The notes under the pieces: generated by a model | Told to the model about the DNA's origin: nothing | Seen by the model: only the letters and a program-made list of their open reading frames with translations | The model's database searches: none | Made by a program: the position numbers and the translations under genes | Shown: positions 777-62,476 of the stretch, piece after piece | How positions within the stretch are numbered: position 1 is the stretch's first letter | Layout: each line of letters starts with the position of its first letter | Virus record (IMG/VR): IMGVR_UViG_3300003310_000099 | Coordinates: 42,295-106,294 of that record | Length of the DNA stretch: 64,000 bases | Direction: 5' to 3' (one strand) | From: a virus | Lineage: Duplodnaviria; Heunggongvirae; Uroviricota; Caudoviricetes

Positions 777-1208
777 ATGAAAAAATGTAGTAATTGCAAC
801 AAAGATAAAGCTCTATCGGAATTCAATAAAAAAAGGCAAGGATTACAACCTTGGTGCAGAGAATGCAATAGGTTGCGATCAAGGTTATATTATGCTCAAA
901 ACAAAGACAATCATTTGCAGGTGATTCAATCTCGTAAAGATAAGATTTACAAAGAGCATAATAGAAAAATTAAAGAAATAAAGTCTAATGCCTGTTGTGC
1001 ATTATGCCCAGAATCGGAATCGGTTTGTTTAGACTTCCACCATTTGAGAGATAAGGATGTTCCTATAAGCAGAATAGTGCATCGAGGATATTCTTGGGAA
1101 CGTATATTAATGGAAATGAAAAAATGCGTGGTTTTGTGTTCTAATTGCCATAGAAAAGTTCATGCTGGCATCCTAACTGTGAATGAAGAAATGTTATGGA
1201 CTAATTGA
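777..1208 (+). CDS. HNH homing endonuclease with N-terminal CxxC zinc finger
   Basis: 143 aa. CSNC…CREC N-terminal Zn finger, LDFHHL and CSNCH motifs (HNH). ATG starts 3 nt after the tRNA at 701..774. Paralogous to ORFs at 7165, 12323 and 39213. Confidence 0.8.
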   Translation: MKKCSNCNKDKALSEFNKKRQGLQPWCRECNRLRSRLYYAQNKDNHLQVIQSRKDKIYKEHNRKIKEIKSNACCALCPESESVCLDFHHLRDKDVPISRIVHRGYSWERILMEMKKCVVLCSNCHRKVHAGILTVNEEMLWTN

Positions 1209-2478: not shown

Positions 2479-2565
2479 TCCTGGGGAGTGATTATTGGTA
2501 ATCACGCACGGCTGTTAACCGTGTAATACCGCAAGGTTATGCTGGTTCGATTCCAGCCCCAGGAG
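2479..2565 (+). tRNA. type II tRNA (17-nt variable arm) with anticodon read as GTT
   Basis: 87 nt. Acceptor tcctggg/cccagga perfect. Anticodon arm cacgg-ctGTTaa-ccgtg. Variable arm taataccGCAAggttat (GCAA-capped). T-arm gctggTTCGATTccagc. Confidence 0.55.
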
Positions 2566-2570
2566 CTTTA

Positions 2571-5573: not shown

Positions 5574-5645
5574 GGGGGAGTGTAGCGGTTTTCTACACAT
5601 TTGTTTCATAAGCAAGTGGTAACGGTTCAACTCCGTTCTTCCCTA
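5574..5645 (+). tRNA. tRNA with CAT anticodon (Met, fMet or Ile-lysidine type)
   Basis: Acceptor gggggag/cttccct (two G-U), anticodon arm tttgt-ttCATaa-gcaag, T-arm aacggTTCAACTccgtt. D-arm spacing slightly irregular. Confidence 0.5.
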
Positions 5646-5762
5646 CTATGGTGAGCCTTACCCCAACTGAGAGAGAAATTTCTAGGGACGGTCAATCCCG
5701 ATGATGAAATAGTATTTCAACTAGGTGACTCAAGGCTGAGAGGGTGACTCCTCTCAATTTAC

Positions 5763-6520: not shown

Positions 6521-6733
6521 ATGATTAACTTTGAAGCCTTTGTGTTGTATTATACTGCTTTTCATGAAGGCGAACTTAATATTAAAGAATTTAAGGAAAT
6601 GTTGCTGGCAGACGTTGGGGAAGAAGGTTTTAAGGAAGCACTCGCTATTTTCAAGCAGAAAAGAGAAGAGAGGCTTGCGGCGGGTGATAAGCGGACGTTA
6701 TATGATGCAACGAAGGTGGAGAAGAAGGATTGA
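6521..6733 (+). CDS. hypothetical protein (70 aa)
   Basis: ORF. Overlapping frame 6531..6803 rejected. Confidence 0.35.
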   Translation: MINFEAFVLYYTAFHEGELNIKEFKEMLLADVGEEGFKEALAIFKQKREERLAAGDKRTLYDATKVEKKD

Positions 6734-6874
6734 ATTGGGCTTGTACGTCAATGGTAAGACTTCGTGCTTTAAGCCGATACATGGAGTCAATAGGCGTAGC
6801 TAACCTATCTTTGTCCATGATGAATGCTAGACATTCTTCAGGCAGGAACTGCACGAAAAGCGGGTTCGATTCCC
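6727..6874 (+). tRNA. tRNA-like gene with ~85-nt insertion in the anticodon region (possible intron-containing tRNA)
   Basis: 5' half gggcttg-ta-gtc-aatggtaa-gac-t-tcgtg-ctttaag…, 3' half …cacga-aaa-gcgggTTCGATTcccgc-ctagccc. Anticodon stem tcgtg/cacga pairs only across the insert. Anticodon would read TTA or TAA depending on register. Confidence 0.35.
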
Positions 6875-6883
6875 GCCTAGCCC

Positions 6884-6956
6884 ACTGGATTATGCCCCTA
6901 TGCTCGTAATTGGTAACGAACGAGTCTCTTAAACTCGGAATCAGGGTTCGACTCCC
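6884..6956 (+). tRNA. tRNA-Lys (CTT), second copy
   Basis: Acceptor gccccta/tgggggc, D-stem tcg/cga, anticodon arm cgagt-ctCTTaa-actcg, T-arm cagggTTCGACTccctg. Confidence 0.6.
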
Positions 6957-7103: not shown

Positions 7104-7164
7104 GTCTCCACAGCTTATATTGCATAGCTCAAAGTTATATGGTATATTTGAACCTGGAGGTTCT

Positions 7165-7518
7165 ATGCCATATAAAGATGTTGATAAACAAAAAGAGTCA
7201 CAGCAAACTTATTACCAAAAGAATAAGGATTTGTATAAAGCTAGGGATAAAGAAAGAAAAGAAGAAATAAAAACTTGGGTTAGAAATTATCGTATTTCTA
7301 AAGTTTGTGAGGATTGTGGTGAAGACCGATGGCAATGTTTAGATTTCCACCATATAGATTCGAGTAACAAGTTTTTATCTATTAGTATGATGGTGCGAAA
7401 GAAATATTCTGTAGAAAAGATTAAGAATGAAATAATGAAGTGTAAAGTTATTTGTGCTAACTGTCATCGGTGTCATCATAGCGGTAATGTTTGGGAGAGT
7501 GCTAGTCTCGGAGTGTAA
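7165..7518 (+). CDS. HNH homing endonuclease (zinc-finger type)
   Basis: 117 aa from the internal ATG preceded by GGAGG. CEDCGE…LDFHHID…CANCH motifs. Confidence 0.8.
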   Translation: MPYKDVDKQKESQQTYYQKNKDLYKARDKERKEEIKTWVRNYRISKVCEDCGEDRWQCLDFHHIDSSNKFLSISMMVRKKYSVEKIKNEIMKCKVICANCHRCHHSGNVWESASLGV

Positions 7519-12322: not shown

Positions 12323-12808
12323 ATGGTTTTATGTAGCAAGTGCAAAAAAGATAAATCTGCTTCGGAATTTAATTTCAATAGTTCCAAAAATCGGTTGGAA
12401 TATCACTGTAAAGAGTGTCATAGTGAATATTTGAAAGAACATTATAAGAAAAATAAAGATTATTATAAGTCCAAAGCCAGCAAAAGAAATAAGTTGGTTA
12501 AACAAGAAAATAAAGTTAGGATTTTTGAGTATTTGCAAAATCATGCTTGTGTTGATTGTGGAGAAAAAGAGCCTATATTTTTAGATTTTGACCATGTAAG
12601 GGGTAAGAAACGATGTAGTCTTTCTAAGCTTGTTAGGGGAGGCTATGCGTGGGAAATAATTCAACAAGAGATAGACAAGTGCGAAATTCGCTGTGTGAAA
12701 TGCCATAGAGTAAAAACATACAAGCAGTTTGGTTGGTATGGTTGGTGGGAAGATATGGCCCGTGGGTGTGATGGATTAGCACATCACTCTACGAAAGTGA
12801 AAGAATAG
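12323..12808 (+). CDS. HNH homing endonuclease (zinc-finger type)
   Basis: 161 aa. CSKC…CKEC, LDFDHV, CVKCH motifs. Its last ~17 codons are encoded by the tRNA-Arg gene at 12757..12829. Confidence 0.75.
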   Translation: MVLCSKCKKDKSASEFNFNSSKNRLEYHCKECHSEYLKEHYKKNKDYYKSKASKRNKLVKQENKVRIFEYLQNHACVDCGEKEPIFLDFDHVRGKKRCSLSKLVRGGYAWEIIQQEIDKCEIRCVKCHRVKTYKQFGWYGWWEDMARGCDGLAHHSTKVKE

Positions 12809-22321: not shown

Positions 22322-23362
22322 GTGGTTATTTGGAAGGAAATTATGAAAACTGGAGACAAAATAAGTCATTGGGAAATCCTTGAATATATTGGCAAAAATA
22401 AGCACGGATTAAATCTTTGGCGGTGTCGATGTAACTGTAGTGCTGAAAGAGTATTAACTACTTCTTATCTCAATATGCAAAAGGATAGAGGATATCGTTT
22501 TTGCAGAAAATGTCACGGAAAAGAAGAAGATAAAGAATTCATTGCTGAATACATTGGCAAGAAAATTGGCACTTGGACAGTTTTGGCATTGAAAGGCAGA
22601 AACAAATACAGAACCAGAAAGTGGTTGTGCAAATGTGATTGCGGCGTCGAGAAACTGTTTACAACCTGCTATTTGTCTGGCAGATATAAACGAAAAGCTA
22701 CTACTTGCAAATATTGTGAGTTGAAAAATCTGGAATTAGAGAACCGCACGACCGATTATCTACCGCAGCGATTTTGGCAAAAGTTTCTCAATGTCGCAAG
22801 GAAAAGGAACATCGCCGTATTAATTACGAAAGAGCAAGCATTTAATAAGTATAAAACACAAGATGGTCGGTGCAACTTATCAGGGTTGCCTTTATATTTC
22901 ACTAAATTAACAGGCAGGTATTGGAGATACACCAACGCATCTATTGACAGGATCGACTCGACAAAGCCATATACTTTGGATAACATCCAATGGCTTGAGA
23001 AGCGAATCAACATGATGAAGCAGGCGTATTCTCAACACGAATTTGTTGCCTTGTGCAAGTTGGTTGCAAAAACGGACAAAGTTCACTTTAACGAAGTTCA
23101 ATGGGATGGAGAAGACCCACAGTTACTTCGAGATATTGAGAAGCATACAACCCAGGAAAACATGATTTGTTTAAATTGCGGTCAAAACGAAGCGATTTTC
23201 CATCCAAGACTATGTAGCGACTGTTGTGATTTATTACAAGCCATGAACAGGTGTTATAATGAGCAAAAAAGAAAAGAAATTGGTAAAACTGATCCGCAAA
23301 CGGAAAGACCAGATGGAGAATCAGCAATACAAACTAAGAAAAATAAGGATCAAAAAGCATGA
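22322..23362 (+). CDS. HNH_3-like homing-endonuclease-like protein with repeated Zn-finger modules
   Basis: 346 aa. Two CRCNC…CRKCH / CKCDC…CKYC modules. C-terminal NASIDRIDSTKPYTLDNIQWL resembles the HNH_3 (DHID…N) motif, but His is replaced by Arg. Confidence 0.45.
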   Translation: MVIWKEIMKTGDKISHWEILEYIGKNKHGLNLWRCRCNCSAERVLTTSYLNMQKDRGYRFCRKCHGKEEDKEFIAEYIGKKIGTWTVLALKGRNKYRTRKWLCKCDCGVEKLFTTCYLSGRYKRKATTCKYCELKNLELENRTTDYLPQRFWQKFLNVARKRNIAVLITKEQAFNKYKTQDGRCNLSGLPLYFTKLTGRYWRYTNASIDRIDSTKPYTLDNIQWLEKRINMMKQAYSQHEFVALCKLVAKTDKVHFNEVQWDGEDPQLLRDIEKHTTQENMICLNCGQNEAIFHPRLCSDCCDLLQAMNRCYNEQKRKEIGKTDPQTERPDGESAIQTKKNKDQKA

Positions 23363-39123: not shown

Positions 39124-39207
39124 GTCTGCGTGGTCGAGTGGTTGATGGCATCAGACTGCAAATCTGACGGGCGCAAGCCCCGCGTAGGTTCGAATCCTAC
39201 CGCAGAC
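39124..39207 (+). tRNA. type II tRNA (16-nt variable arm) with anticodon read as GCA
   Basis: 84 nt. Acceptor gtctgcg/cgcagac perfect. D-stem gtc/ggc. Perfect anticodon arm tcaga-ctGCAaa-tctga. Variable arm cgggcGCAAgccccgc. T-arm gtaggTTCGAATcctac. Confidence 0.55.
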
Positions 39208-39212
39208 TTTAT

Positions 39213-40204: not shown

Positions 40205-40284
40205 TGGTCCCGTAGTCTAATGGAGAGGCAACAGTTTCCTAAACTGTGGCGCAAGCCAATGCAGGTTCGAATCCTGTCGGGACT
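40205..40284 (+). tRNA. type II-like tRNA (13-nt GCAA-capped variable arm) with anticodon read as CCT
   Basis: Acceptor ggtcccg/cgggact, D-stem gtc/ggc, perfect anticodon arm acagt-ttCCTaa-actgt, variable arm ggcGCAAgccaat, T-arm gcaggTTCGAATcctgt. Confidence 0.5.
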
Positions 40285-40287
40285 ACT

Positions 40288-40362
40288 TGGGGTAACAATG
40301 GGCGGTAAGATCATAAACCGAATAGGATTGATTTTATTGAGGGTTCGATTCCCTCTTACTCC
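40288..40362 (+). ncRNA. degenerate tRNA-like element (no foldable anticodon arm)
   Basis: Acceptor ggggtaa/ttactcc and T-arm gagggTTCGATTccctc are intact, with D-stem atg/cat. The 24-nt central region has no 5-bp stem with a U33-containing 7-nt loop. Confidence 0.3.
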
Positions 40363-40365
40363 ATT

Positions 40366-40551
40366 ATGAAACTTGAAAACGTTATAAGTTCCTATGTTGC
40401 AGCAGACCTTATAGCAAAGGTTTATGATGCGCCAAAGGACGCTGTTACTTTTGATAAGATGATTGTTGTTTTTAGCAGTCCTGCTTGCAAAAATATCAAA
40501 ATGGTCACTCTTTACGACACAAGAACTCAAAAAGTGACTGGCTCCTATTAA
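40366..40551 (+). CDS. hypothetical protein (61 aa)
   Basis: ATG 4 nt after the tRNA-like element. Confidence 0.35.
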   Translation: MKLENVISSYVAADLIAKVYDAPKDAVTFDKMIVVFSSPACKNIKMVTLYDTRTQKVTGSY

Positions 40552-43198: not shown

Positions 43199-43286
43199 CG
43201 GAGCGAGCTTCGGTAAGCACGCGAGTCTTATAAACTCGTAGCCTCTGATTAAGGCGCGGTTTAGGGTTCGACCCCCTACGCTCCGA
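43199..43286 (+). tRNA. type II tRNA (21-nt variable arm) with anticodon read as TAT
   Basis: 88 nt. Acceptor cggagcg/cgctccg perfect. Perfect anticodon arm cgagt-ctTATaa-actcg. Long variable region tagcctctgattaaggcgcgg. T-arm tagggTTCGACCcccta. Confidence 0.5.
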
Positions 43287-48757: not shown

Positions 48758-48829
48758 GCCACTTTGGCAGAGCGGTGATGCACTGGTTTTGTAAACCAGA
48801 CTAGCTGGGTTCAACTCCCAGAGGTGGCT
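48758..48829 (+). tRNA. tRNA-Thr (TGT), second copy
   Basis: Acceptor gccactt/aggtggc, D-stem gca/tgc, anticodon arm ctggt-ttTGTaa-accag, T-arm ctgggTTCAACTcccag. Confidence 0.6.
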
Positions 48830-48831
48830 CT

Positions 48832-60959: not shown

Positions 60960-61341
60960 AACCTTCTCTCATATGATAATTAGGGTCATAATTAGGAATG
61001 CCACACGCTTCCGCTCTTAATCTATGCCATTCTGGTGAATTGACTGGATGTGTCAACCACTCGCCAATAGGCTCTTTGTGAAGCCAAATCTCATTGGGTG
61101 TATCAGGGCAATGTGAATCCAACACAGTTAATTGTAAACCAAAGTTTTCAGCTATAATCCTGACTTCATCAATATACCAAGTCTGCTCTTTGGTTGGACG
61201 TAGCATACAAGCTTTGCATACGCCTAGATACACTTTTTCAGCTTGACCAGCAGCAAAACCATAACAGAAGTATTTATAATGCTCTAAAGAGCCATTATAA
61301 CGTTCTCTTAATGGCTGTGTAACTTTAGCTAGAACTTTCAT
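60940..61341 (-). CDS. hypothetical protein (133 aa)
   Basis: Minus-strand ORF. Confidence 0.4.
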   Translation of the reverse strand: MKVLAKVTQPLRERYNGSLEHYKYFCYGFAAGQAEKVYLGVCKACMLRPTKEQTWYIDEVRIIAENFGLQLTVLDSHCPDTPNEIWLHKEPIGEWLTHPVNSPEWHRLRAEACGIPNYDPNYHMREGYGERAG

Positions 61342-61708
61342 CTAAATTTACCTCACCAATTCCCTTGTTCCTGGGAATGTTAATTGCAATTGCAGTGTTT
61401 TCGTTATAATCGGGGTGTATGTCGTTAATCAAGTACCGCTTATTGCTACCCATTTCCATCAATAAAGCGTGCCAGAATAAACCATGCGACCTTAATTGAT
61501 TTTCAGTTGCTTCTCTGGTGCTATTAGGTCGGCCAGTGGTTAAAACGATCTTATAACCGCCTTTATCCCACTCGTTGAACTTTTCAACAACACCTGGCAA
61601 TAATTCAATGCCAGGTGCTATTAGTTTTGTACAATTGCCTTTTTCAGCAACTTTAAATATACACCCGTCTATATCACAGAATATTACCGACTGCTTTGTA
61701 TTTTTCAT
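61325..61708 (-). CDS. HAD-superfamily phosphatase-like protein
   Basis: N-terminal DxD motif VIFCDIDGCIF, later KIVLTTGRP, consistent with HAD motifs I and II. 127 aa. Confidence 0.5.
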   Translation of the reverse strand: MKNTKQSVIFCDIDGCIFKVAEKGNCTKLIAPGIELLPGVVEKFNEWDKGGYKIVLTTGRPNSTREATENQLRSHGLFWHALLMEMGSNKRYLINDIHPDYNENTAIAINIPRNKGIGEVNLDESSS

Positions 61709-61727
61709 TATATATTCCTTATTAAAT

Positions 61728-61820
61728 GGGCTGTGAGGGATTCGAACCCCCGACCAAGGGATTAATCGTGGGTGATAGCCCCGTTGAGTCCCCTGCTCTA
61801 ACCACTGAGCTAACAGCCCT
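61728..61820 (-). tRNA. tRNA gene (minus strand) with ~20-nt insertion in the anticodon loop; anticodon read as CAA (Leu) if the first loop nucleotides are used
   Basis: Reverse complement gggctgt-ta-gctc-agtggtta-gagc-a-gggga-CTCAAcggggctatcacccacgattaa-tccct-tggtc-gggggTTCGAATccctc-acagccc. All arms are canonical except a 27-nt anticodon loop. Confidence 0.45.
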
Positions 61821-61825
61821 GCCTT

Positions 61826-62476
61826 TTACTTCTTTTCAAGTGGCAGACTTGTCACTTTAATGGTGAATTGATACTTATTGATTGTCAAAGCTCGATCATT
61901 TCTCTCATGTAAATTATTTGCAGCATTGAGCAACTGCATTGTGCCAACCTCATATTCGTAAAGAGGATGAAACTTACTAATAATCTGCTCAAGTATTTGG
62001 TTCATATCTTCCTGATACAATGTTCTAACTGTCAAAGTATAGAATATGCAGATGCTGGGTGCAGTAAAGTTGAAATCACCACGATAGATGTTAATAAGCG
62101 GAAGCCTTAATATATCAGGAATTTCAACTTTTACAGTTCTGTCCCGTAAAGCTTCCATTATAGGATCATTTTTCAACTTCTCAAACTGTGGATTACTCGT
62201 ATGCCCAATATGGGGTGCAGTAATAAAGTCGGTAGTAATAAAGTCTGCCTTCTCATCTGTTGCCCAAATAACAGGAACAGTGTGTGCTTCACCACATTCA
62301 TCAATCACAACCGTATCTTTAAAGGCATTCATAGTGTGTTCGTCACACTGACGAAGCCAACGGCACCATTTCTTAACATCAAATTTGGATTTTTCCTTGG
62401 CTGGCAAACTTTGACCTAAGCCAAACATGCCAAGGAAAGAAGCCAATGCCTGCATGAAAAATCGTCTATCCATCAT
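61826..62476 (-). CDS. secreted protein with twin-arginine (Tat-like) signal peptide
   Basis: MMDRRFFMQALASFLGMFGLGQSLPA. 216 aa. Confidence 0.5.
   Translation of the reverse strand: MMDRRFFMQALASFLGMFGLGQSLPAKEKSKFDVKKWCRWLRQCDEHTMNAFKDTVVIDECGEAHTVPVIWATDEKADFITTDFITAPHIGHTSNPQFEKLKNDPIMEALRDRTVKVEIPDILRLPLINIYRGDFNFTAPSICIFYTLTVRTLYQEDMNQILEQIISKFHPLYEYEVGTMQLLNAANNLHERNDRALTINKYQFTIKVTSLPLEKK

What the first reader, a model, noticed from the sequence alone, without database searches (positions are those of the whole stretch)
6727..6874. Two tRNA genes interrupted in the anticodon region (about 85-nt and about 20-nt insertions)
At 6727..6874 a canonical 5' half (acceptor, D-arm, anticodon 5' strand tcgtg, loop ctttaag…) and a canonical 3' half (…cacga, 3–4-nt variable region, T-arm gcgggTTCGATTcccgc, acceptor ctagccc) are separated by about 85 nt. 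The anticodon stem can form only across the insert. At 61728..61820 on the minus strand every arm is canonical, but the anticodon loop is 27 nt: CTCAA followed by a hairpin-forming ~20 nt. Bacterial and phage tRNA introns are normally large group I introns, so short inserts are unusual. The first gene's anticodon reads UUA (an ochre-suppressor-like reading) or UAA (Leu), depending on stem register.
Basis: seen in the sequence. Interest (0 to 1): 0.65.

Follow-up and report, generated by a model that had tools for sequence, protein, structure and literature searches.

The report
Short hairpin introns in megaphage tRNAs
Two transfer-RNA genes of a ~596-kb bacteriophage are split in the anticodon loop by short inserts (76 and 20 bases) that match no known tRNA intron type. 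Comparison with related phages shows that at least the 20-base case sits in a working gene, so bacteria infected by these phages probably carry out an undescribed kind of tRNA splicing.

Summary
Both pass Rfam's tRNA threshold (43.3 and 61.5 bits).

- **tRNA#1** is a class-I tRNA. Its register gives anticodon UAA (reads UUA/UUG), not an ochre-suppressor UUA. A 76-nt insert follows G37.
- **tRNA#2** is a CAU (Met/Ile2-type) tRNA: CUCA|20-nt hairpin|UAA.

Neither insert matches a group I intron or a known ribozyme, and neither forms an archaeal bulge-helix-bulge.

The window comes from a 596-kb phage contig related to the 595-kb phage LR756511.1. In that lineage the same CAU tRNA carries 14-37-nt inserts at 32/33, 34/35 or 35/36. 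Arg(UCU) and Thr(UGU) tRNAs carry ~21-nt hairpins where orthologues are uninterrupted.

Nine interrupted CAU genes, spliced in silico, show strong compensatory covariation, so they are functional genes. LR756511.1 carries a homologous intron with the same ends (ACGGG...CGAU), shifted 3 nt. This suggests that the intron itself carries the recognition signals.

The best reading is protein-dependent excision and ligation by unknown enzymes. The closest precedent is the "enigmatic" tRNA introns of Lak megaphages. tRNA#1 has no diverged orthologue, so whether it functions is open.

The parts
6737..6773 (+). tRNA#1 5' exon: acceptor GGGCUUG, U8 A9, D arm CGUC-AAUGGUAA-GACU, U26, anticodon stem CGUGC, loop nucleotides U32 U33 U34 A35 A36 G37 (anticodon UAA)
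   Evidence: Infernal alignment; ARAGORN -i. There are two stem mismatches, U6.U67 and C10.U25.
6774..6849 (+). tRNA#1 intervening sequence, 76 nt, at 37/38 in the best register. It is predicted to fold as a three-way junction: closing GCC/GGC, a long hairpin CAUGGA...UCCAUG with an inner AUAGG/CCUAU, and a hairpin GAAUG-CUAGA-CAUUC, followed by a 6-nt tail.
   Evidence: It occurs only once in the window and fetched loci. No Rfam hit at E<=10. It is retained with 2 substitutions in strain L055, one of which changes A-U to G.U in the inner hairpin.
6850..6884 (+). tRNA#1 3' exon: U38, anticodon stem GCACG, 4-nt variable loop AAAA, T arm GCGGG-UUCGAUU-CCCGC, acceptor CUAGCCC, discriminator A
   Evidence: The spliced sequence folds as a cloverleaf at minimum free energy.
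61785..61819 (-). tRNA#2 5' exon (GGGCUGU UA GCUC AGUGGUUA GAGC A GGGGA C32 U33 C34 A35)
61765..61784 (-). tRNA#2 intervening sequence, 20 nt, ACGGGGCUAUCACCCACGAU. It is a hairpin with a hexaloop CUAUCA and a bulged A, and it splits the anticodon between A35 and U36.
   Evidence: Homologous introns: L068 (ACGGGGUUGUCACCCACGGU, same position) and LR756511.1 (ACGGGUUUAUCAACCCGCGAU, at 32/33).
61727..61764 (-). tRNA#2 3' exon (U36 A37 A38, UCCCU, variable UGGUC, T arm GGGGG-UUCGAAU-CCCUC, acceptor ACAGCCC, discriminator A)
   Evidence: Covariation of the exon cloverleaf across nine interrupted relatives.

Best explanation
Both loci are tRNA genes of a ~596-kb Mahaphage-like bacteriophage, each carrying a true intervening sequence in the anticodon loop. 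They belong to a phage-restricted class of short tRNA inserts. This class is distinct from group I introns and from archaeal/eukaryal BHB introns.

**Proposed mechanism (inferred, not shown).**
1. The pre-tRNA folds as a normal cloverleaf, with the intron forming its own stem-loop projecting from the anticodon loop.
2. A protein endonuclease, phage-encoded or from the host, recognises that intron hairpin. In the 20-23-nt class the hairpin has a 4-6 bp stem and a hexaloop ending in A.
3. The endonuclease cuts at set distances on either side, 1-3 nt on the 5' side and usually 5 nt on the 3' side. The cuts are therefore independent of where the hairpin sits in the loop.
4. The two exon halves stay held together by the tRNA body. 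They are end-healed and sealed by an RNA ligase of the kind large phages carry for anticodon-loop repair.

**Products.** tRNA#2 would become a CAU tRNA (Met, or Ile2 if C34 is lysidinylated). tRNA#1 would become a class-I tRNA with anticodon UAA that reads UUA/UUG.

**What is shown.**
- The interrupted genes exist.
- The tRNA#2 family is under selection as a tRNA.
- The intron ends are conserved while the intron's position shifts.
- Known self-splicing and BHB signatures are absent.

**What is inferred.** Excision itself, the enzymes, and the exact junctions.
For: 1. **The genes are real tRNA genes.** Scores are 43.3 and 61.5 bits against a threshold of 29.
2. **The interrupted CAU gene is functional.** Nine interrupted CAU genes were spliced in silico: window, LR756511.1, L029, L041, L043, L046, L044, L045 and L023.
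   - 97.9% of stem cells pair.
   - 10 of 21 pairs show changes on both sides (38 cells).
   - 0 of 500 shuffles reach the observed covariation score.
   - Slid controls pair in 50% of cells or fewer.
   - The search pattern did not constrain stem pairing.
3. **Window versus L068.** The exons differ at 4 of 73 positions, including one compensatory pair. The intron differs at 3 of 20, all in unpaired positions.
4. **Same intron, different position.** The window has CUCA|ACGGGG..CACGAU|UAA. LR756511.1 has C|ACGGGU..GCGAU|UCAUAA. Both yield CUCAUAA only if the same intron unit is removed.
5. **Presence/absence between orthologues.** Arg(UCU) carries a 21-nt insert in L034-36 but not in L033. Thr(UGU) carries a 21-nt insert in L043 but not at window 48758-48830.
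6. **The introns of L046 (CAU) and L043 (Thr) resemble each other.** They share 12 of 21 bases with two compensatory stem pairs, and both sit at 34/35.
7. **A regular architecture.** Most 20-23-nt introns have a hexaloop hairpin and a 5-nt 3' flank.
8. **The inserts are restricted to phage-like sequence.** The same degenerate CAU-tRNA pattern finds 5 real cases in metagenome contigs and 1 (in two contigs) in IMG/VR. It finds none in 185,579 species genomes, where all 8 hits are masking or duplication artefacts. The uninterrupted anticodon arm occurs in at least 120 viral contigs.
9. **Sealing enzymes exist in the clade.** LR756511.1 encodes an RNA ligase (PF09414, 55.7 bits) and a CCA-adding/poly(A)-polymerase-family enzyme. 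The 590-kb relative encodes a tRNA-ligase-type cyclic phosphodiesterase domain (PF08302, 27 bits against a cutoff of 23). Jumbo phages commonly carry Rnl1, Rnl2 or RtcB (PMC7824862).
10. **The tRNAs would be useful.** UUA+UUG make up 52% of Leu codons and AUA 20% of Ile codons in window ORFs.
Against: - No endonuclease candidate was identified.
- No RNA ligase, RtcB or polynucleotide kinase was found in the 64-kb window.
- No orthologue of the LR756511.1 ligase appeared on the 596-kb source contig among the top 120 hits.
- The hairpin-ruler regularity is not universal. L043-CAU, L044, L023 and L045 depart from it, and L045's 14-nt insert has no predicted hairpin.
- There are no RNA data, so excision is unproven.
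- tRNA#1 has no diverged orthologue.
- tRNA#1 has two stem mismatches.
- tRNA#1 sits where relatives carry tRNA-Ala(GGC). Its functionality rests only on 0/72 exon changes against 2/76 intron changes in one near-identical strain.
- A UAA anticodon on a body without a long variable arm is atypical for bacterial tRNA-Leu.
Confidence: 0.55

Rival explanations
1. The inserts inactivated the genes. On this view these are tRNA pseudogenes, tolerated because the phage carries 50-65 partly redundant tRNAs. The inserts come from a hairpin-generating mutational process that also puts hairpins into variable loops.
For: - Isoacceptors are redundant. A second CAU tRNA lies at 5574-5646, and L034 has a second Arg(UCU).
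- Small GCAA-tetraloop hairpins also sit in the variable loops of Asn, Cys and Arg tRNAs in the window and are missing from orthologues. This fits a general insertion process.
- tRNA#1 has U6.U67 and C10.U25 mismatches, no orthologue and no similar phage tRNA.
- A tRNA-like remnant at 40289-40370 shows that tRNA decay does occur in this genome.
Against: - For the tRNA#2 family this is excluded by strong compensatory covariation of all variable stems across nine interrupted genes.
- The intron is retained across lineages whose neighbouring gene is only 61-66% identical.
- For tRNA#1 the only data are 0/72 exon changes against 2/76 intron and 5/213 neighbouring-ORF changes in L055. That sample is too small to decide.
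Confidence: 0.15
2. The inserts are never removed. The RNAs act as tRNA-like molecules with an extra arm, for example as decoys for host anticodon nucleases or as regulators, rather than as decoding tRNAs.
For: - Host defences often cut anticodon loops, and phages counter this (PMC7824862).
- In the 32/33 class the whole UCAUAA segment stays contiguous 3' of the hairpin.
Against: - In the window the insert splits the anticodon itself (35/36), and in L046, L044 and L043-Thr it sits at 34/35. Yet removing the insert always regenerates exactly a 7-nt loop with the orthologue's anticodon. A decoy has no need for that.
- Acceptor, T and anticodon stems covary as in working tRNAs.
Confidence: 0.1
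3. The inserts are removed by RNA catalysis: a new, very small self-cleaving or self-splicing motif, possibly using the tRNA body as a scaffold.
For: - Bacterial tRNA introns known so far are self-splicing group I introns in Leu(UAA), fMet/Ile(CAU) and Arg tRNAs (established knowledge; PMC3984707 listed). These are the same anticodons as here.
- The 76-nt insert of tRNA#1 is in the size range of small ribozymes and folds into a three-way junction.
Against: - No Rfam family gives a hit in either insert, even at E<=10. That includes group I/II introns, hammerhead, twister, pistol, hatchet and HDV.
- 14-23 nt is below any known ribozyme.
- Intron sequences diverge fast apart from the stem.
- The fold z-score of pre-tRNA#1 is only -2.0.
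Confidence: 0.07
4. The inserts are archaeal/eukaryal-type introns, cut by an EndA/Sen-like splicing endonuclease at a bulge-helix-bulge and joined by RtcB.
For: - Introns at variable, non-canonical positions are typical of archaeal BHB introns (PMC4090602, listed).
- tRNA#1's best junction is the canonical 37/38.
Against: - A search for hBHBh' (4-bp central helix, two 3-nt bulges, flanking helices of at least 2 bp) found no motif at or near any plausible junction. It covered the window tRNAs, L029, L034, L023, and LR756511.1's CAU tRNA and D-region inserts.
- Minimum-free-energy structures put the junctions in symmetric internal loops or inside helices.
- No RtcB signature was found in LR756511.1 or the window by motif scan.
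- The host phylum inferred for this clade is bacterial.
Confidence: 0.05

Closest known systems
'Enigmatic' tRNA introns of Lak megaphages (Devoto et al. 2019, Nat Microbiol; PMC6784885)
   Same: - Both occur in a >500-kb phage. Lak belongs to the Mahaphage clade; for the window phage that placement is inferred, not tested.
- Inserts sit in the anticodon loop of otherwise canonical tRNAs.
- There is no Rfam match.
- Related genomes differ in whether the insert is present.
- The mechanism is unknown.
- tRNA#1's 76 nt is close to the Lak range of 79-114 nt.
- Lak introns start with a small hairpin carrying an A-rich hexaloop (for example CAGG-AAACAA-CCUG). This resembles the short hairpin introns here, for example AGGUU-AAACA-AACCU in L034.
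   Different: - Lak introns sit at about 36/37 and contain a tRNA-like minihelix with a GGTTCGAATCC T-loop.
- Neither window insert has such a minihelix.
- The 14-37-nt hairpin-only introns are not in that paper. Nor are the shifts between 32/33, 34/35 and 35/36, or the covariation evidence for function.
Archaeal/eukaryal protein-spliced tRNA introns (BHB motif, EndA/Sen endonuclease, RtcB or Trl1 ligase)
   Same: - The introns are short (about 11-100 nt).
- They lie in or near the anticodon loop, and in archaea also at other positions.
- Exon halves are held by the tRNA body and rejoined by a protein ligase.
- A Trl1-type phosphodiesterase domain and an RNA ligase occur in relatives.
   Different: - There is no bulge-helix-bulge.
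- The host is bacterial.
- No EndA homologue was seen.
- Recognition seems to reside in an intron hairpin rather than in a BHB or in a distance measured from the tRNA body.
Bacterial group I introns in tRNA-Leu(UAA), tRNA-fMet/Ile(CAU) and tRNA-Arg(CCU) genes
   Same: The same tRNA species (UAA and CAU anticodons) and the same general site, the anticodon loop.
   Different: - Those introns are roughly 200-350 nt or longer and are self-splicing ribozymes with a P1-P9 core.
- The inserts here are 20 and 76 nt with no group I signal.
- tRNA#1 lacks the long variable arm of bacterial tRNA-Leu.
Phage T4 anticodon-loop repair (PrrC cleavage, Pnkp end healing, Rnl1 sealing) and the jumbo-phage RNA repair gene sets
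   Same: This system supplies the second half of the proposed pathway, sealing a nicked anticodon loop inside an intact tRNA body. Ligase, phosphodiesterase and CCA-adding genes are present in relatives.
   Different: That system repairs damage and removes nothing. No link between these enzymes and the interrupted genes is shown here.

Membership tests
tRNA gene (Rfam RF00005) | Cloverleaf with acceptor, D, anticodon and T arms, scoring above the curated threshold | tested here: met
   43.3 bits (6737-6884) and 61.5 bits (61727-61819), against a threshold of 29 and over the full model 1-71. The spliced forms fold as cloverleaves.
tRNA gene (functional, under selection) | Compensatory substitutions that keep the stems across diverged homologues | tested here: met
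   Met for tRNA#2 only: 10 of 21 pairs change on both sides, 97.9% of cells pair, and 0 of 500 shuffles match. tRNA#1 is inconclusive because only a near-identical strain is available.
Ochre-suppressor tRNA (anticodon UUA) | Positions 34-36 read UUA in the register that fits the tRNA model | tested here: not met
   Infernal and ARAGORN both place the stem at CGUGC/GCACG, giving U34 A35 A36. The alternative register lacks nucleotide 26 and leaves a 3-nt variable loop.
Bacterial tRNA-Leu | Class II body with a long variable arm | tested here: not met
   The variable loop is AAAA, 4 nt. Canonical class II Leu tRNAs, including UAA, exist in the related genome LR756511.1. The amino-acid identity of tRNA#1 is therefore unknown.
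Group I intron in a tRNA gene | Intron of roughly 200 nt or more with a P1-P9 catalytic core, detectable by RF00028 | tested here: not met
   The inserts are 76 and 20 nt. There is no Intron_gpI hit at E<=10 with permissive filters.
Known small self-cleaving ribozymes (hammerhead, twister, pistol, hatchet, HDV-like) | A match to the family covariance model | tested here: not met
   No such hit at E<=10 in 6650-6950 or 61650-61900.
Archaeal/eukaryal BHB tRNA intron | Two 3-nt bulges separated by a 4-bp helix, with the splice sites inside the bulges | tested here: not met
   A custom scan found no hBHBh' at any junction that would restore a tRNA. It covered 10 pre-tRNAs: 5 and 5.
Archaeal/eukaryal BHB tRNA intron | Presence of an EndA/Sen-type splicing endonuclease | not tested
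   Only 64 kb of the 596-kb genome was available. Pfam scans of window ORFs showed none. LR756511.1 was screened only with simple motifs.
Lak-megaphage-type tRNA intron | Non-self-splicing insert in the anticodon loop of a tRNA of a >500-kb phage, present in some related genomes and absent in others | tested here: met
   The source contig is 596,394 bp. Presence/absence among orthologues is shown. There is no Rfam hit.
Lak-megaphage-type tRNA intron | Intron of 79-114 nt holding a tRNA-like minihelix with a T-loop (GGTTCGAATCC), preceded by a small hexaloop hairpin | tested here: not met
   The Lak sequences were read. tRNA#1's 76-nt insert has no T-loop motif. tRNA#2's insert consists only of a hexaloop hairpin.

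The most novel reading that the evidence does not exclude
Megaphages of this clade use a protein-based tRNA splicing pathway inside bacterial cells. The pathway is neither group I nor BHB/EndA. An endonuclease reads a small hexaloop hairpin carried by the intron and cuts at measured distances from it. The intron can therefore sit at, and move between, any position of the anticodon loop, and perhaps the D region, and can spread between different tRNA genes. A phage RNA ligase then reseals the loop. This would be a third, previously undescribed class of tRNA intron and the first protein-dependent tRNA splicing in the bacterial world.
Probability: 0.35. Interest if true: 0.85.

Novelty: new variant of a known kind. 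Interest (0 to 1): 0.66.

Why it matters
Bacteria are thought to lack protein-dependent tRNA splicing, and their few tRNA introns are self-splicing ribozymes. Functional phage tRNA genes split by 20-nt hairpins imply that something in the infected cell cuts and rejoins tRNA precisely.

This study supplies a defined substrate set:
- one tRNA family with introns at three loop positions;
- a homologous intron that has shifted by 3 nt;
- intron-free orthologues as controls.

With these, the question first raised for Lak phages becomes directly testable by RT-PCR, by cyclic-phosphate or 5'-OH RNA sequencing, or by in-vitro processing.

Two practical points follow. Standard bacterial-mode tRNA annotation misses or mislabels these genes: default ARAGORN skipped tRNA#1 and called tRNA#2 'Val(AAC)'. 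Phage tRNA inventories and codon-supply analyses may therefore be incomplete. An enzyme that excises a hairpin-tagged segment and reseals RNA could also be a useful tool.

Tried and rejected
1. **Exact or gapped DNA patterns.** Patterns from both genes found nothing in IMG/VR. The 3' exon of tRNA#1 found nothing in the metagenome collection. The source contig is not in either collection.
2. **Neighbour-gene synteny for tRNA#1.** Homologues of the upstream 70-aa ORF are followed by tRNA-Ala(GGC), not by a tRNA#1 orthologue.
3. **Insert as a repeated or mobile DNA element.** blastn-short found no second copy in the window or in the loci fetched by then.
4. **BHB motif.** Absent.
5. **Simple junction rules.**
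   - "The last exon base pairs with the last intron base" holds in about 6 of 11 cases.
   - "The first and last intron bases pair" holds in about 8 of 12 cases.
   - Both counts were made by hand from the structures. Neither rule is universal.
6. **Pfam on concatenated ORFs.** The run worked, but the GS linkers gave spurious Serglycin hits and sensitivity was low.
7. **HAD phosphatase next to tRNA#2 as an end-healing enzyme.**
   - It gives only sub-threshold PNKP-type hits.
   - It is not syntenic in L029.
   - The single-sequence AlphaFold model is unusable at pLDDT 39.8.
8. **RNA ligase on the source contig.** The LR756511.1 ligase was used as query, and no hit from the source contig appeared among the top 120.
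9. **E. coli comparison to name tRNA#2 as Ile2.** The ranking was dominated by full-length tRNA-Lys matches and was not informative. The resemblance to Ile2 therefore rests on my recollection of ileX, and the gene is reported as 'CAU (Met/Ile2-type)'.
10. **Similarity between tRNA#1's 5' half and an LR756511.1 tRNA (c291310-291437).** Infernal parses the latter as a tRNA with a 55-nt D-loop insert, so homology is unclear.
Full report
**What is in the window.** The 64-kb window is phage-like. It holds small, mostly co-oriented ORFs, including NAPRTase, an ATP-dependent DNA ligase, an HNH endonuclease and SAICAR synthetase, and about 50 tRNA genes. A protein next to tRNA#2 is 100% identical to one encoded on JGI contig Ga0071082_100015, which is 596,394 bp long. 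The window corresponds to about positions 265,308-329,307 of that contig. Many window genes are 66-75% identical at the DNA level to the 595-kb uncultured phage LR756511.1. The Mahaphage clade of Al-Shayeb et al. 2020 contains the largest phage genomes and the Lak phages and is predicted to infect Bacteroidetes. Placing this phage in that clade is my inference.

**Checking the observation.**
- tRNA#1: Rfam's tRNA model matches 6737-6884 (+) end to end at 43.3 bits, with 79 unaligned bases in the anticodon loop.
- tRNA#2: the model matches 61727-61819 (-) at 61.5 bits, with 24 unaligned bases.
- With intron detection on, ARAGORN reports tRNA(UAA) with a 76-nt intron after position 37, and tRNA(CAU) with a 20-nt intron between 35 and 36.
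- Without intron detection it misses the first gene and mislabels the second as Val(AAC).
- The features recur in independent data. tRNA#2 is identical in a second sample (L028). tRNA#1 with its insert is in a near-identical strain from another run (L055).
- As a control, ARAGORN -i on 120 unrelated viral contigs (433 tRNAs) gave one spurious 3-nt call.

**Anticodons.** For tRNA#1, both programs place the anticodon stem at CGUGC/GCACG, with U26 and a 4-nt variable loop. The loop then begins U32 U33 U34 A35 A36 G37, so the anticodon is UAA. The UUA 'ochre' reading needs a register without nucleotide 26 and with a 3-nt variable loop. The tRNA is class I, so it is not a standard bacterial tRNA-Leu and its charging identity is unknown.

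LR756511.1 keeps its class II Leu/Ser/Tyr tRNAs in a separate cluster. That explains why the window has none.

For tRNA#2, only CUCA + UAA restores a 7-nt loop with a purine at 37 and the CAU anticodon. The spliced sequence matches 216 uninterrupted phage tRNAs over at least 80% of its length. The identical uninterrupted anticodon arm occurs in at least 120 viral contigs.

UUA/UUG make up 52% of Leu codons and AUA 20% of Ile codons in the window's ORFs. Those ORFs cover about 82% of the DNA under the standard code.

**What the inserts are not.**
- No Rfam family other than tRNA gives a credible hit in either region at E<=10. This includes group I/II introns and the small self-cleaving ribozymes.
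- A scan for the archaeal helix-bulge-helix-bulge-helix motif found nothing at any junction that would restore a tRNA, in ten pre-tRNAs from this clade.
- The inserts are not copies of a repeated element.

**Relatives of tRNA#2.** The gene next to tRNA#2 encodes a T4 gp15-like protein, and its homologues led to syntenic tRNAs. A degenerate pattern for this tRNA type found more in metagenomes and IMG/VR. All are CAU tRNAs with an insert:

| Position | Locus and insert length |
|---|---|
| 35/36 | window 20 nt, L068 20 nt, L023 37 nt |
| 34/35 | L046 21 nt, L044 34 nt |
| 32/33 | LR756511.1 21 nt, L029 23 nt, L041 22 nt, L043 23 nt, L045 14 nt |

The same pattern run over one genome from each of 185,579 bacterial and archaeal species returned eight hits. 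All were masked-N duplications or tandem partial tRNAs. Within the limits of that pattern, the inserts are therefore confined to phage-like sequence.

**The interrupted genes are functional.** When the nine distinct CAU genes are spliced in silico and aligned:
- 97.9% of stem cells form standard pairs;
- 10 of 21 pairs show changes on both sides;
- no shuffle out of 500 reaches the observed covariation;
- sliding the partners by 1-3 columns drops pairing to 50% or less.

The acceptor, anticodon and T stem positions that vary were not fixed by the search pattern. Between the window and L068, the exons differ at 4 of 73 positions, two of which form a compensatory pair. The intron differs at 3 of 20, all unpaired. 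These are working tRNA genes, so the insert must be removed or otherwise neutralised. Because it splits the anticodon in several of them, removal is the only simple reading.

**The intron carries its own boundaries.**
- Window: GGGGA-CUCA|ACGGGGCUAUCACCCACGAU|UAA-UCCCU.
- LR756511.1 orthologue: GGGGA-C|ACGGGUUUAUCAACCCGCGAU|UCAUAA-UCCCU.

The intron is clearly homologous, with the same ends ACGGG...CGAU and one compensatory change in the stem, but it sits 3 nt further 5'. Both precursors give CUCAUAA only if that same unit is excised.

Most 20-23-nt introns share one layout: 1-3 unpaired bases, a 4-6-bp stem, a hexaloop ending in A, and five unpaired bases before the 3' junction. The hexaloops are CUAUCA, UUGUCA, CUGAUA, GAGACA, CAGACA and CAAAGA.

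The introns of L046 (CAU) and L043 (Thr-UGU) share 12 of 21 bases with two compensatory stem pairs, and both lie at 34/35.

Exceptions exist. L044 and L023 have longer hairpins, L043-CAU has a weak one, and L045 has none predicted.

I infer that recognition lies in the intron hairpin, with cuts measured from it. This is a hypothesis, not a result.

**Other interrupted tRNAs in the clade.**
- Arg(UCU) in L034-36 has a 21-nt hairpin that its L033 orthologue lacks.
- Thr(UGU) in L043 has a 21-nt hairpin that the window orthologue (48758-48830) lacks.
- LR756511.1 also has two tRNAs with 53-55-nt inserts in the D-loop/position-26 region.

**tRNA#1.** No diverged orthologue was found. Homologues of its upstream ORF are followed by tRNA-Ala(GGC). 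The spliced sequence has no phage match. The only comparison is with strain L055: 0/72 exon changes, 2/76 intron changes (one A-U to G.U in a predicted stem) and 5/213 in the neighbouring ORF.

The 76-nt insert is predicted to form a three-way junction and lacks the hexaloop-hairpin layout. The gene has two stem mismatches. Whether it is functional therefore remains open. I put about 0.45 on spliced-and-functional and about 0.25 on pseudogene for this gene alone.

**Enzymes.**
- No RNA ligase, RtcB, kinase or splicing endonuclease was seen in the window.
- LR756511.1 encodes an RNA ligase (PF09414, 55.7 bits, with a PHA02142 OB domain), a weaker second ligase-like ORF and a CCA-adding/poly(A)-polymerase-family enzyme.
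- The 590-kb relative and L069/L070 encode a domain of the fungal tRNA-ligase cyclic phosphodiesterase type.
- Jumbo phages commonly carry Rnl1, Rnl2 or RtcB, interpreted as anticodon-loop repair (PMC7824862).
- Sealing capacity is therefore plausible, but the endonuclease is unknown.
- A HAD phosphatase ORF lies 18 nt downstream of tRNA#2. It has only sub-threshold similarity to polynucleotide-kinase phosphatase domains and is not syntenic in L029.

**Comparison with what is known.** The closest precedent is Devoto et al. 2019. Lak megaphage tRNAs carry 79-114-nt 'enigmatic' introns at about 36/37 with no Rfam hit. Those introns start with a small A-rich hexaloop hairpin and contain a tRNA-like minihelix.

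The window's cases are the same kind of thing in the same broad clade, but they differ in three ways:
- hairpin-only introns of 14-37 nt;
- several positions within the loop for one orthologous tRNA;
- evidence here for purifying selection on the exons.

They are not members of the group I class or the BHB class.

**Verdict.** I rate it a new variant of a known but unexplained kind, with interest 0.66. The most novel reading not excluded is a hairpin-guided, protein-dependent tRNA splicing pathway operating in phage-infected bacteria (probability about 0.35).

Noticed in passing
window 2479-2566, 39124-39208, 40206-40286, 43199-43286 (+): Four tRNAs that ARAGORN calls Asn(GUU), Cys(GCA), Arg(CCU) and Ile(UAU) are 81-88 nt long because a small hairpin sits in the variable loop. 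Three of the hairpins have a GCAA tetraloop, for example GGGC-GCAA-GCCC. Orthologues in relatives lack them: Cys is 73 nt in LR756511.1 and Arg(CCU) is 73 nt in L034. Small hairpin insertions therefore also occur at a site where they need not be removed.
   Followed up: partly
window 40289-40370 (+): A tRNA-like remnant lies directly after tRNA-Arg(CCU). It has a 7-bp acceptor stem and a perfect T arm (GAGGG-TTCGATT-CCCTC). Neither ARAGORN nor the Rfam tRNA model calls it. It could be a decayed tRNA or one with an unusual interruption.
   Followed up: partly
window 61325-61708 (-): A 127-aa HAD-superfamily phosphatase ORF starts 18 nt downstream of the interrupted tRNA#2. It has weak, sub-threshold similarity to polynucleotide kinase-phosphatase (RNA end-healing) domains: PF25109 at E 3.5e-4, PDB 4xrp Pnkp1 at E 0.0017. 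It is not at this position in L029, and the AlphaFold single-sequence model was unusable.
   Followed up: partly
LR756511.1 c289133-289258 and c291310-291437 (L061 40133-40258, 42310-42437): Two tRNAs of the related 595-kb phage carry 53-55-nt structured inserts in the D-loop/position-26 region. Both inserts end in AGCAUACAAA. Infernal scores one at 50.6 bits with a 55-nt D-loop insertion. Neither has a BHB.
   Followed up: partly
LR756511.1 c179588-179661: ARAGORN calls a tRNA with anticodon CUA (amber-reading, labelled 'Pyl') in the related phage. No such tRNA is in the window.
   Followed up: no
L068 960-1652: In a relative, a 5' fragment of the CAU tRNA (GGGCCTGTAGCTCAATGGTCAGG) lies right after the gp15-like gene. 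A 179-aa ORF follows, and then the complete interrupted tRNA. This looks like a gene insertion that duplicated part of the tRNA.
   Followed up: no
window 777-1208, 7120-7518, 12323-12808, 22322-23362 (+): ORFs with zinc-finger/HNH-like motifs are scattered through the tRNA array. 22322-23362 matches PHROG HNH/endonuclease VII families. For the others, the CxxC...HH motifs were seen by eye in the translations, and Pfam gave only a non-significant HNH hit (E 0.5) for 7120-7518. If these are free-standing homing endonucleases that cut tRNA genes, inserts in the anticodon-loop DNA could give immunity to cleavage. That would be a possible selective reason for the introns.
   Followed up: no
L038 11685-12788: An IS605 OrfB/TnpB-like gene (Cas12f-like TNB domain) lies inside the tRNA region of a related phage contig.
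   Followed up: no
window 52-64 kb (as L027) and relatives: There are several NADAR-domain ORFs and a PTH2 peptidyl-tRNA hydrolase. Relatives carry SIR2 and an RF-1-type release factor. This is a rich set of translation- and NAD-related accessory genes around the tRNA arrays.
   Followed up: no
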